Below, piece by piece: positions 60,701 to 63,700 of a stretch of 64,000 nucleotides of DNA (its first letter is position 1; each line of letters begins with the position of its first letter). The DNA comes from Ruditapes philippinarum (taxonomy: Eukaryota), in contig NW_026859550.1 of assembly GCF_026571515.1 (NCBI RefSeq), positions 1 through 64,000 of the forward strand, read 5' to 3'. Made by a program: the position numbers.

Positions 60701-63700
60701 CCTGATAGTAGATCTTCTCCAGCTCTCAACAGTATGTATCTGACTGAAAATAACCTCGTTATTTACAAGGGGTTTCTAAAAGGCACTGCACAATAGGATA
60801 GTTATAGTGCTTGTTACAGTGGAATATGACAGATATGTTTTTGGCCTATTCAGTTTCATGGTTATTAAGCCTTGGGTTAGGTCACACCTAAACTTTCTTG
60901 AGGTAAAGTTTGAGGTCAAGGTATACCATTGAAGCTTACATGAAATTTTCTGATACTGTCATCCACTACACTAGCAATCACTATAACTTACATAACATTA
61001 TTTCCGAGTATTAAATACTTATCTAGCGATCTCATGTATTGGTTTCAGCTCGCCACAAATCAAGGCGAAAGAGATCGTCTTTTAAGCGAGAGAGACGTAA
61101 TACATGGCATACAGGCATTGTTCCAGAAATGGTTGAAACAGTCGAGAAGCGGGACAAACTGGTCTCGGTTGAGTACACTATTCCAGGCTACAGGTCGGGA
61201 CGTAAACTTCCACCCAATTATCAAGCAAGAAAAGAAATAGAAAAGTTAAAAGTTCAGGTCCCTATTAAAGTATTGAAACAGAAAGTGGAAGCCTGTGAAT
61301 TACGAGATTACCGCGCAAAAGCTGAAAAATTAACACCTAAGGGGGAGTACTTTGGAATGAAGAATTTTCATAGGTCTCTATCACTGGCGAGTTACTTTAG
61401 TCGTGGAACCTTATACAGTTACCCACGAAAAACTAGCACACCTTCGTTAATTGAGCTCGTATCTGCTGAGGATGGCGGCGGAGAGGATGATGTTTTTGAA
61501 AGTGGTTTAAGTTCAAGTCGATCTGAGCCAGGGACGTGTTACCCCTCGTCAAGCCAGCAGTCAAAAAGCGACTCTGAGCTTATGAGAAGTTGGCTTGCTA
61601 GAAAAGATAACAATAATAATAATGATCTGTTGAAATCAAATAAGAAATTGAATGATTGTGAAATGTGTTCAAACAGTAAGTTGTATCTGTGTGCAGTGAT
61701 GATTGAAAAGTTTACTTAAAAAAATCATTCCATATGGACACCTATTTGCTTTTCATGTAAAATTTGTATTTTCCAGAACAAATTTCTATTTTACTTAAAT
61801 ATGAAACAAAATGTCTTCATATTGTACTTTCTTATATTTGTTTTCATATAAAATGCTTTGCATTAAACTTCTTGGATAAATGGTTTGAACAAGTATTCTT
61901 TGTGGAACTGTTTTTATTCAAGAATATTTAAAATCAATGCTTTGGAAATGATGTGAATTTTCATAATTGTAATTTAATATTTTGTAACTTTATTTTAGGT
62001 GATCAACCAATGTCTGCTGCTGAAAGGTTACATGTGCAAGCACCTGGTCACCAGGCACCGCATCCGCACGGTCACCACAACAGACGTGGTGATAATCGTG
62101 ATATGATGGATAAATCAAAATCTATTCCAAACCTTCACATTGACAATTCTTTCGATGGCCGACATGATCCAGGAGTGATGCGGCCAGCACAGAGTGTAAG
62201 TGCGTTACAGCGCAATCAGAACCCTGACTATTATAATCAGCCTCATTCACTGGAGGATTCAAGAAGTCACGATTACGAAAATCAACCTATTGACCCAAGA
62301 ATTAGGGATCAGAATAGAGGATATCCAAATACGAGTCAACAACCATCGCCCAGAACGCAATACAATCGTCCACCTATGCACCAATCACCAGCAAGAACTG
62401 CACAGAATTTTGAAAGACCACAATCACAGTTTATTGCTCCTCATGATAGGCCAGAGTTAAGGAACGGACGTCCAAAGTCAGAGGAGATCAGTCAAGAGAG
62501 ATTGAGAAATTGGCAGGATGGCCAAGGGTCTCCTCATGACAGTTTCGAAAATAGAGTACCTAACTATAGCAATATTAGACCGCAACCTAATTATGCAAAT
62601 CAAGGTGAGATTAGAAAGATGGACATGGGCAACCAGTCGAAACAGCCAAACTTTTACGAAAATACGTTACCAAGGCAACAAGAACCAACGCCTCCATTCC
62701 AGCAGCTAAGGCAACCGGAAGAAGAAAAGTCTAAGCCAATGACAGCACCAAAACCGTCAGTGGCACCAAAACCAAATCAGCCAATGGTACATCCTACAGA
62801 GATTCCAAGATCAGACATAGATAACAGACAAACTCAACCTCATTTCTACAACCCACAGCTTAGAGATAAACCAGTGTATCCCCAGGCATCACAGAGTTTT
62901 AACACTTCACCCAACTCTCAGAGTCATTACCAAAATACAAGCTTCCATGATGGTCGAGCAGATTTTAGAAATAAGCATTCCCCAGGGGGAAGTGATATGC
63001 ACAAGAGCCCAAATATGTCAAGTAACATGCACGAAATTCCTCCAGAACTGCCGCCACCACCGTCAATGGATGAATTGCAAGATGAAGAATTACCTCCCCT
63101 GCCTCCACCACCAGCTATGGATTACAGACTTGAACAAAAAATACGTGAAGAACAGAACAGACTTTTACAACAGCCTCCCTCTGACCCAAGTTATAGCAAT
63201 CTTCCTCCACAGAATAGCAGAAATCAGCCATTTTCCACTACATCAATAATGCGTGACCCAAGGTCTGCAACTCAACCTGGGAACCAGTCACTTCCACCCA
63301 ATTCTGCTGGTTACCAGCCTCCAATGAGTTCTGGGTACCAGCCCCACCATCCGACCGGATATCAGCCTCCACATTCAGCTGGTTTCCAAATTCATCAGCC
63401 ACAGTCATTGCCAGTACAGTCAGCTGGGTATCAGCCTAACCATGACTACCAAAATATTAACTATCCAAACAGAAGTATGGAGCACAGTCCATCTGCCCAA
63501 CAGCCACATCAACAACAACAACAAAATTTGTACGAATCATATGATCCAAGAAAAACGCAGTCAAATCTTAGGCCCGCAATTCATACCCAGATCAAAGATC
63601 AACGCGAAACAATTTTGTCGCCATGGCAACGTGAGGAGAAAGAAAAGCAACTCAAAGAACAGGAAGAAGGAATGAATCGTATACGCGAGATGGAGATCGC

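What the first reader, a model, noticed from the sequence alone, without database searches (positions are those of the whole stretch)
61049..61675. Large symmetric candidate cassette exon adding a 209-aa kinase-motif-rich insert after the afadin PDZ domain
Seen: an open 627-nt segment with a good acceptor, a perfect GTAAGT donor and phase 1 at both ends, so it can be included or skipped without frameshift. A 226-codon ORF is unlikely by chance in such AT-rich intron DNA. The peptide is compositionally unlike its P/Q-rich neighbours and carries clustered basophilic phosphosites (RRKRSS, RERRNTW, HRSLSL, PRKTST, SRSEP, KSDSE) and a basic NLS-like start. Inference: a lineage-specific regulatory module switched by splicing. 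I do not recognise it from vertebrate afadin or fly Canoe.
Basis: partly seen in the sequence, partly recalled or inferred. Interest (0 to 1): 0.72.

Follow-up and report, generated by a model that had tools for sequence, protein, structure and literature searches.

The report
Clam-specific optional exon in afadin
This is a real protein-coding exon of a clam's afadin gene, shared with a group of related clams and probably included or skipped by splicing, and public gene models of related species already contain it.

Summary
Window 61049-61675 (+) is an open 627-nt segment with AG at 61047-48, GTAAGT at 61676 and phase 1 at both ends. It lies in a 230-codon stop-to-stop ORF, not 226; 0 of 100 composition-matched simulations gave one that long.

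It is a genuine afadin exon. The peptide matches Mercenaria mercenaria afadin-like isoform X3 (73.7% over 190 aa), a Mya arenaria GenBank model and a Dreissena polymorpha model, at the same junction (...SSPALN | exon | SDQPMSAAERL...). Seven unnamed ORF fragments match at 49-75%.

Cassette use is therefore plausible, but no RNA data were available for this species.

All named carriers are Imparidentia. Unionid, mussel and oyster models lack it. Oysters and an ark clam carry a different insert at the same junction, with no detectable homology.

"Kinase-motif-rich" is weakly supported. The best-conserved feature is a near-invariant 24-aa core (61297-61368) with no Pfam, PDB or Atlas relative.

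It is already annotated in relatives and uncharacterised: modest interest.

The parts
60548..60731 (+). Upstream afadin exon (post-PDZ linker, ...GPDSRSSPALN). It ends with one carried-over base (phase 1), with donor gtatgt at 60732. The 5' boundary was not resolved; 60548 is the start of the tblastn match.
   Evidence: 92.2% identity to Mercenaria X3 residues 1115-1178. Donor score 4 of 7.
60732..61048 (+). Upstream intron, 317 nt. The acceptor tract is cgatctcatgtattggtttcag.
   Evidence: Pyrimidines are 13 of 20 at positions -22 to -3, inside the 11-18 range of the 15 introns resolved out of 22 in this gene.
61049..61675 (+). The candidate exon: 627 nt, phase 1 at both ends. It encodes Thr plus 208 residues (P0001).
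   Evidence: Homologous to the insert in Mercenaria X3, the Mya GenBank model, the Dreissena model and 7 unnamed ORFs. Single copy in the window.
61051..61098 (+). Basic, serine-containing head (RHKSRRKRSSFKRERR; 10 K/R in 16 residues).
   Evidence: The head is basic in 7 of the 8 homologues that cover it, and a serine follows the basic run in 6 of 8. RxRxxT is kept in 4 of 8.
61102..61581 (+). Conserved body of the module (about W19 to L177). It holds 28 columns invariant in the 8-sequence alignment, including the RSLS, DDVF, RSEP and SDSE motifs.
   Evidence: Helices are predicted at residues 24-43, 57-69, 72-92, 106-113 and 133-138, but at low confidence (mean pLDDT 50.3).
61297..61368 (+). 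Near-invariant 24-residue core, ELRDYRAKAEKLTPKGEYFGMKNF (E83-F106).
   Evidence: 24 of 24 identical in P0004; 23 of 24 in Mercenaria, P0003 and P0005; 22 of 24 in Dreissena.
61582..61675 (+). Fast-evolving tail, including poly-Asn (AAT-type codons at 61609-61623). The part from about 61600 lies beyond the point where the Mercenaria X3 model already splices out.
   Evidence: the match to Mercenaria ends at 61596. The window reads AGA at 61600-61602 where Mercenaria has the split Ser codon (the link between the two is inference).
61676..61998 (+). Downstream intron, 323 nt, with donor GTAAGT at 61676-61681. If the donor were not used, the frame would end at TAA 61717-61719 after 14 more codons.
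   Evidence: The donor scores 5 of 7, the best of 10 phase-1 GT sites between 61500 and 61719. There is one ATTAAA (61862), which is the background density.
61999..63839 (+). Downstream large P/Q/N-rich exon of the disordered region (SDQPMSAAERL...), with donor GTAAGT at 63840. The gene continues beyond the window.
   Evidence: 89.0% identity to Mercenaria X3 residues 1359-1985. No Pfam family.

Best explanation
Window 61049-61675 is a genuine internal coding exon of the afadin (AFDN/Canoe) gene of a heterodont clam close to, but not the same as, Mercenaria mercenaria. It sits about 80 residues after the PDZ domain, between the linker exon ending at 60731 and the large disordered-region exon starting at 61999. 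All junctions are phase 1.

Including the exon inserts 209 residues. Skipping it regenerates exactly the ...SSPALN-S-DQPMSAAERL... join seen in relatives' models.

The encoded module is restricted, as far as named sequences show, to imparidentian clams (Venerida and Myida). It has five parts:
- a basic serine-containing head;
- a helix-prone, nearly invariant 24-residue core followed by an aromatic-rich stretch (YFGMKNF...SYF...LYSYP);
- an acidic ELV..D..DDVF motif;
- RSEP and SDSE motifs;
- a rapidly changing tail whose length sets where the donor lies.

The most likely mechanism is an optional docking ('sticker') module. Alternative splicing places it into afadin's disordered linker, where it adds a binding site for an as yet unknown partner. 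The conserved [RK]xxS and acidic-serine sites may tune it by phosphorylation.

Shown: the exon is real, coding, conserved and frame-neutral, and relatives' gene models both include and skip it.

Inferred: alternative use in this species, the docking function and the phospho-regulation.
For: Chance is excluded: 0 of 100 simulations reach 230 codons.

Homologues:
- Dreissena DPMN_055824, E 1.8e-39, 95 of 183 identical.
- Seven representatives at E <= 1e-30 among 1.84 billion proteins.
- Mya AFAD-like partial and Mercenaria afadin-like isoform X3 carry the exon internally at the same junction.

The whole window gene is colinear with Mercenaria X3 residues 1-1985 in 23 matches. The exon is 73.7% identical, against 89-92% for its neighbouring exons.

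The gene is afadin: RA twice, FHA and DIL by Pfam on single exons of the window; PDZ by colinearity with X3.

Skip forms: Mya RefSeq X2 and Mactra Mllt4p read SSPALN-S-DQ.

Conservation pattern: 28 invariant columns in 8 sequences, concentrated at residues 73-158, and the 24-residue core.

Precedent for optional inserts at this spot: Saccostrea X2 and X4 differ by a 473-residue insert at the same junction. Passages of PMC10399776 report that Drosophila cno has an alternative serine-rich exon near the start of the disordered region.
Against: No transcript data for this species could be consulted, so inclusion, skipping and the donor actually used are unverified.

The inclusion and skip models in Mya come from two different annotation sources. 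One may be an ab initio prediction.

The splice sites are not weak. The acceptor has 13 of 20 pyrimidines, within the gene's 11-18 range, and the donor GTAAGT is a perfect intron consensus. This is not the usual signature of a regulated cassette.

The structure model is poor (mean pLDDT 50.3, pTM 0.17), so 'helical core' is only a tendency.

Motif counts are mostly at composition expectation.

No partner or function is supported by any search.
Confidence: 0.65

Rival explanations
1. A constitutive exon in this species. It is always spliced in, and the skip models of Mya X2 and Mactra reflect species differences or annotation choices and not regulated splicing.
For: The acceptor is of ordinary strength and the donor matches the intron consensus perfectly. 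The flanking introns are short, at 317 and 323 nt. The exon is present in models of 3 of the 4 named imparidentian species retrieved.
Against: The exon is exactly frame-neutral. It evolves faster than its neighbours: 73.7% identity against 89-92%. Alternative inserts occur at this junction within one species in Saccostrea.
Confidence: 0.2
2. An alternative last exon. The donor at 61676 is ignored, translation ends at TAA 61717-61719, and a short afadin is made that lacks the whole proline/glutamine-rich region and the actin-binding end. This would be comparable to fly CnoRD/RI or to vertebrate s-afadin.
For: The Dreissena model ends at a stop inside the homologous ORF. The Tegillarca model ends in alternative sequence and lacks the C-terminal afadin families listed for the other hits. 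The frame in the window closes 14 codons after the donor. Fly and vertebrate precedents are given in passages of PMC10399776.
Against: The Mercenaria X3 and Mya models splice on to the next exon. The window donor is a perfect GTAAGT in the right phase. Poly(A)-signal-like hexamers in the downstream intron are at background density: 1 in 323 nt, against 2.7 per kb in a control intron. The Dreissena model is also truncated at its N-terminus and looks like a split gene model (inference).
Confidence: 0.1
3. Not a functional exon: a chance ORF, an exonised repeat, or a decaying pseudo-exon in the intron.
For: No known protein family matches. The structure prediction is of low confidence.
Against: The ORF length is beyond all 100 simulations. 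Open, alignable homologues exist in at least three named species plus 7 unnamed sequences, with 28 invariant columns. There are no tandem repeats in the segment and it is single copy in the window.
Confidence: 0.02

Closest known systems
Annotated insert in Mercenaria mercenaria afadin-like isoform X3 (RefSeq), Mya arenaria AFAD-like protein (GenBank) and Dreissena polymorpha DPMN_055824
   Same: The same junction (SSPALN | Thr/Met codon ... | S-DQPMSAAERL), the same conserved body and the same 24-residue core. Identity to the window peptide is 73.7% for Mercenaria and 52% for Dreissena.
   Different: The 3' end differs. The Mya model splices out before SDSE. Mercenaria splices about 10 residues after SDSEL. 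The window, and the closest unnamed ORF P0003, stay open about 25 codons further, to GTAAGT. The Dreissena model reads to a stop.
Alternative insert of pteriomorph bivalves (Saccostrea cucullata X2 against X4, Crassostrea virginica X4, Tegillarca granosa model)
   Same: It is inserted at exactly the same junction after ...RSSPALN. It is serine- and arginine-rich, and is optional within one species in Saccostrea.
   Different: It is about 440-470 residues long and not about 165-209. No detectable homology: the profile search finds nothing at the insert, hhalign gives probability 0.12%, and 569, 92 and 946 of 1000 shuffles reach the real scores. One of 33 pairwise comparisons gave z = 4.97, which is not confirmed. 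The window encodes no such sequence.
Drosophila Canoe alternative disordered-region exon (isoforms CnoRD and CnoRI), as described in PMC10399776 (passages read)
   Same: An alternative serine-rich exon (14.2% Ser in the fly, 13.0% here) enters near the start of the disordered region. It is unrelated in sequence to the canonical region and evolves faster than it.
   Different: The fly exon is 718 residues and replaces the rest of the protein, including the actin-binding region. Here the models of relatives splice back into the canonical region. Sequence relationship to the fly exon was not tested, because no fly sequence could be fetched with the remaining tools.
Vertebrate s-afadin / l-afadin splice isoforms (PMC4436838 and PMC2139800 seen in a search listing only; PMC10399776 passages read)
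   Same: Afadin function is diversified by alternative splicing in the disordered C-terminal half.
   Different: s-afadin is a C-terminal truncation that loses the actin-binding end, not an internal insert after the PDZ domain. No sequence comparison was made.

Membership tests
Afadin / Canoe gene (host gene of the exon) | Domain order RA-RA-FHA-DIL-PDZ, followed by a long disordered region | tested here: met
   Pfam on single window exons gives RA (8757-8969 and 26866-27027), FHA (30924-31124) and DIL (33978-34286 and 34888-35196). The PDZ pieces are too short to score alone (0 families for 44338-44559 and 54470-54556) but are colinear with the PDZ of Mercenaria X3 at residues 1013-1091.
Cassette (skippable) exon | Canonical AG...GT borders and a length divisible by three, with the same phase on both sides | tested here: met
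   627 nt, phase 1 at both ends; the skip join gives Ser.
Cassette (skippable) exon | Both inclusion and skipping transcripts observed in the same organism | not testable with these tools
   No RNA data. The indirect evidence is that the Mya GenBank model includes the exon and Mya RefSeq X2 skips it at one locus, Mercenaria X3 includes it and Mactra skips it. The members of the isoform clusters could not be listed.
Imparidentian afadin insert (unnamed sequence family defined here) | Significant sequence similarity over the body, including the 24-residue core, at the SSPALN junction | tested here: met
Pteriomorph afadin alternative insert (KYRSG... type) | The same insertion junction | tested here: met
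Pteriomorph afadin alternative insert (KYRSG... type) | Detectable sequence homology | tested here: not met
   There is a single marginal pairwise score.
Any curated protein domain or solved structure | A match to a Pfam model or a PDB chain | tested here: not met
   Pfam gives 0 families for P0001 at E <= 10 and 0 for all 8 alignment members. PDB gives 0 by sequence and 0 by profile. The best Atlas score is 0.77, below the lead level.
14-3-3 mode-1 site (RSxpSxP, motif recalled from memory) | Arg at -3 or -4, Ser, and Pro at +2 | tested here: not met
   The window reads HRSLSLA. [RK]xxS is kept in 11 of 11 sequences, but no sequence has Pro at +2.
Classical nuclear localisation signal | A basic cluster that drives nuclear import | tested here: inconclusive
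   A basic cluster is present (10 K/R in 16 residues) and the head is basic in 7 of 8 homologues. No predictor or assay was available.
Fly CnoRD/RI alternative exon | Sequence homology to the fly alternative exon | not tested
Only the description in PMC10399776 was read.

The most novel reading that the evidence does not exclude
The junction just after afadin's PDZ-linker exon may be an old protostome 'socket'. Different lineages (imparidentian clams, oysters and ark clams, flies) would have plugged unrelated serine- and basic-rich alternative modules into it. The clam module, with its invariant 24-residue core, would then be a dedicated docking site that retargets afadin to a lineage-specific partner or compartment when the exon is spliced in.
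Probability: 0.2. Interest if true: 0.55.

Novelty: new member of a known kind. Interest (0 to 1): 0.3.

Why it matters
Afadin/Canoe links cell junctions to actin, and its disordered half is now studied as a set of 'stickers and spacers'. This exon is a conserved, optional and lineage-restricted sticker-like module. It sits at a junction that also takes unrelated alternative inserts in oysters, and the fly has a comparable alternative exon. That gives a natural experiment in how splicing rewires a junctional scaffold.

It also has practical use for annotation. It explains why the Dreissena model breaks at this point. It also shows that the exon's 3' border moves between species.

The exon is already present in public gene models, and nothing here points to an unusual mechanism. 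The value is incremental.

Tried and rejected
- Pfam on the peptide and on all 8 alignment members: 0 families.
- PDB by sequence and by profile: 0 matches.
- ESM Atlas, whole peptide and residues 44-160: best score 0.77, below the level of a lead.
- Structure prediction from an 8-sequence alignment: mean pLDDT 50.3, pTM 0.17. That is too poor for a fold search.
- Self-association of residues 50-140 with complex prediction: no verdict (score 0.00, controls not folded). This counts neither for nor against binding.
- Homology of the clam exon to the oyster and ark-clam insert: profile search, hhalign and a shuffle-calibrated profile test were all negative. One of 33 pairwise comparisons gave z = 4.97 and was not confirmed.
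- An oyster-type insert in the window: nothing below E = 1.4.
- Terminal-exon signals: one ATTAAA in the downstream intron, which is background density.
- Weak-splice-site signature of regulated exons: not seen. Only 15 of 22 introns could be resolved by the simple boundary script.
- The listing of cluster members, to see the other Mercenaria and Mya isoforms: the database was switched off.
- Literature: 'afadin' + 'bivalve' gave 5 papers, none about this exon judging by title and abstract start. No search found a description of the module.
No mollusc genomic DNA could therefore be compared, and no dN/dS was computed.
- Supplements of PMC10399776 were not seen.
- P0010, a repetitive unnamed protein with E = 9.7e-5, matched only a short PRKKSTPSL-like stretch. 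It was set aside as spurious.
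Full report
**Scope and method.** Every search that started from the window was made exon by exon, using coordinates of single exons or the single-exon peptide P0001. The window contains no N. Nothing in it or among the fetched loci looked human.

**1. The observation.**
- The acceptor is ...tggtttcag|CTC, with AG at 61047-48.
- The open segment is 61049-61675, 627 nt.
- The donor is ACA|GTAAGT at 61676.
- The previous exon ends at 60731 with one base carried over, and the next exon begins at 61999 after ttattttag. 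All junctions are therefore phase 1.
- Inclusion reads a|ct = Thr at the 5' junction and a|gt = Ser at the 3' junction. Skipping reads a|gt = Ser.
- The stop-to-stop frame is 61027-61719, which is 230 codons and not 226.
- It is the second-longest ORF of the window in six frames. None of 100 first-order Markov simulations of the window reached 230 codons; the largest was 198.
- GC is 41.3% in the segment, against 35.0% and 23.8% in the flanking introns.

The compositional contrast is real. P+Q+N is 12.5% in the exon, against 31.2% and 32.8% in the neighbouring exons.

**2. The host gene.** The + strand of the window carries an afadin gene from its first codon.
- tblastn of Mercenaria mercenaria afadin-like isoform X3 (P0012, 2384 aa) gives 23 colinear matches. 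They run from 1355 to 63860 and cover residues 1-1985.
- Pfam on single exons finds RA twice, FHA and DIL (5 of the 8 exons submitted). The three without a family are two short PDZ pieces and the linker exon.
- In X3 the PDZ domain is residues 1013-1091 and the insert begins at about residue 1172.
- The gene runs on past 63839, where there is a GTAAGT donor.

**3. The exon is real and conserved.**
- A word-indexed search of proteins of 365-2000 aa found one hit among 1239 candidates. This was Dreissena polymorpha DPMN_055824, with DIL and PDZ domains, E 1.8e-39 and 95 of 183 residues identical.
- A full HMMER scan of 1.84 billion representatives found 8 proteins at E <= 0.001. Seven had E <= 1e-30. 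All seven are short (138-241 aa) and unnamed, are 49-75% identical, and look like ORFs called on genomic DNA. The eighth (P0010) is a repetitive protein matching a short stretch, and it was set aside.
- Searching the Dreissena segment against proteins of 1464-4180 aa found two proteins among 281 candidates. These are Mya arenaria 'AFAD-like protein, partial' (P0011) and Mercenaria isoform X3. Both carry the segment internally, between ...SSPALN and SDQPMSAAERL....
- The window exon is 73.7% identical to Mercenaria over 190 aa. Its neighbours are 92.2% and 89.0% identical, and the folded domains are 96-100% identical.
- An 8-sequence alignment has 28 invariant columns, concentrated between residues 73 and 158.
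- The stretch E83-F106 (61297-61368) is 22-24 of 24 identical in Dreissena, Mercenaria, P0003, P0004 and P0005.
- The exon is single copy in the window and free of tandem repeats.

**4. Included or skipped?** A third search used X3 residues 1100-1450 against proteins of 1311-4172 aa. It returned 18 proteins among 1739 candidates.

Aligning the post-PDZ region was possible for 10 of 16 named models; the 6 oyster models lacked my anchor and were inspected separately. The alignment shows:
- The Mactra antiquata model (P0013) reads ...SSPALN-S-DQQ....

In close relatives the exon is thus present in some models (Mercenaria X3, Mya GenBank, Dreissena) and absent from others (Mya X2, Mactra).

This supports optional use but does not prove it:
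- the two Mya models come from different annotation sources;
- the other members of the isoform clusters could not be listed because the database was switched off;

The window's splice sites are ordinary. The acceptor has 13 of 20 pyrimidines, where the 15 of 22 introns I could resolve range from 11 to 18. The donor is the best of 10 phase-1 GT sites in the last 220 nt.

**5. The 3' border moves between species.**
- The Mya model leaves the exon just before SDSE.
- Mercenaria leaves it about 10 residues after SDSEL.
- The window, and its closest unnamed relative P0003, stay open through a poly-Asn tail to GTAAGT.
- The Dreissena model reads on to a stop.

The match to Mercenaria ends at 61596. 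Where Mercenaria has its split Ser codon, the window reads AGA at 61600-61602. My inference is that a proximal donor is absent here and the next in-phase consensus donor, 75 nt downstream, is used. This is untested because no Mercenaria DNA was available.

Most of the unnamed ORFs have Ser/Gly/Arg-Lys near their ends. That is what N|GTAAG would translate to. This again is inference from protein sequence only.

**6. Phylogenetic range.** All named carriers are Imparidentia, in the orders Venerida and Myida.

Models without the exon are:
- Potamilus (Palaeoheterodonta);
- three Mytilus models;
- two Crassostrea gigas models;
- Ostrea X4;
- Saccostrea X4.

Absence from gene models is weak evidence of absence from genomes.

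Saccostrea X2, C. virginica X4 and the Tegillarca model carry a different sequence at exactly the same junction. It starts KYRSG or KYRKG. In Saccostrea, X2 has 473 residues there and X4 has a single Ser.

Tests for homology between this insert and the clam exon gave:
- profile search: nothing at the insert;
- hhalign: probability 0.12%;
- a profile test calibrated on 1000 shuffles per insert: 569, 92 and 946 shuffles reach the real scores;
- pairwise comparisons: one of 33 pairs scored z = 4.97, which I treat as unconfirmed.

The window encodes no oyster-type insert.

Passages of PMC10399776 report two things. Fly cno isoforms RD and RI insert a long serine-rich alternative exon after exon 15, unrelated to the canonical disordered region. 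Vertebrate s-afadin is a C-terminal truncation.

**7. What the module looks like.**
- The first 16 residues hold 10 K/R.
- Conserved sites are [RK]xxS at HRSLS (11 of 11), RSE (10 of 11), SDS[ED] (8 of 10) and D[DE]VF (10 of 11).
- RxRxxT is kept in 4 of 8 sequences. PRKTST is not conserved as a phosphosite.
- Motif counts are near composition expectation, except [RK][RK]x[ST], which is 4 against 1.38 expected (fraction of shuffles 0.04). The density of RxxS/T is about five times that of the downstream exon: 2.4 against 0.49 per 100 aa.
- AlphaFold2 gives helices at 24-43, 57-69, 72-92, 106-113 and 133-138, with mean pLDDT 50.3 and pTM 0.17. There is no confident fold. This fits a disordered segment with helix-prone binding motifs.
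- Nothing similar exists in Pfam, PDB or the Atlas.

**8. Interpretation.** The best reading is a genuine, frame-neutral afadin exon that is probably optional. It encodes a clam-lineage docking module placed in the disordered linker after the PDZ domain.
- Confidence that it is a real conserved coding exon is very high.
- Confidence that it is alternatively spliced in this species is moderate.
- Its function is inferred only.

Rival readings are a constitutive exon, an alternative last exon by read-through to TAA at 61717-61719, and a non-functional ORF. The last is effectively excluded.

**9. Novelty.** The exon is already contained in public gene models of relatives, but it has no family name. 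The literature searches made here found no description of it (listings; passages of one paper). It is a new member of a known kind, the alternative exons in the disordered half of afadin/Canoe. Interest is modest.

Noticed in passing
window 61582-61675, compared with P0011, P0012, P0002 and P0003: The exon's 3' border differs between species. The window and P0003 extend about 25 codons, including a poly-Asn run at 61609-61623, beyond the Mercenaria splice point. The window reads AGA at 61600-61602 where Mercenaria has its split Ser codon.
   Followed up: partly
P0017/P0018 (Saccostrea), P0019 (C. virginica), P0016 (Tegillarca); no counterpart in the window: Oysters and an ark clam carry an unrelated insert of about 440-470 residues, rich in serine and arginine, at exactly the same SSPALN junction. 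In Saccostrea, isoforms with and without it are both annotated.
   Followed up: partly
P0002 (Dreissena polymorpha DPMN_055824): This 836-aa model starts shortly before the DIL domain and ends at a stop just after a Ser-Lys that could be a translated GTAAG donor. It looks like a fragment of a split afadin gene model and not a true short isoform.
   Followed up: no
window 22415-23192, 23497-24162, 40681-41691, 42367-43106, 52235-53197: Large intronic tandem arrays: 174 bp x 4.5, 165 bp x 4.0, 145 bp x 7.0, 65-128 bp arrays, and 34 bp x 28.5. The first of these produces the long repeat-derived ORFs at 22546-23416.
   Followed up: no
window 59163-59654 (- strand): A 163-codon open frame on the opposite strand, inside an afadin intron, next to a 20-bp x 6 tandem repeat at 59054-59174. 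It has no Pfam family and was not examined further.
   Followed up: partly
window 60732-61998: The two introns flanking the exon are only 317 and 323 nt long. Several other introns of the gene span 6-10 kb, for example 36.3-44.3 kb and 44.6-54.5 kb.
   Followed up: no
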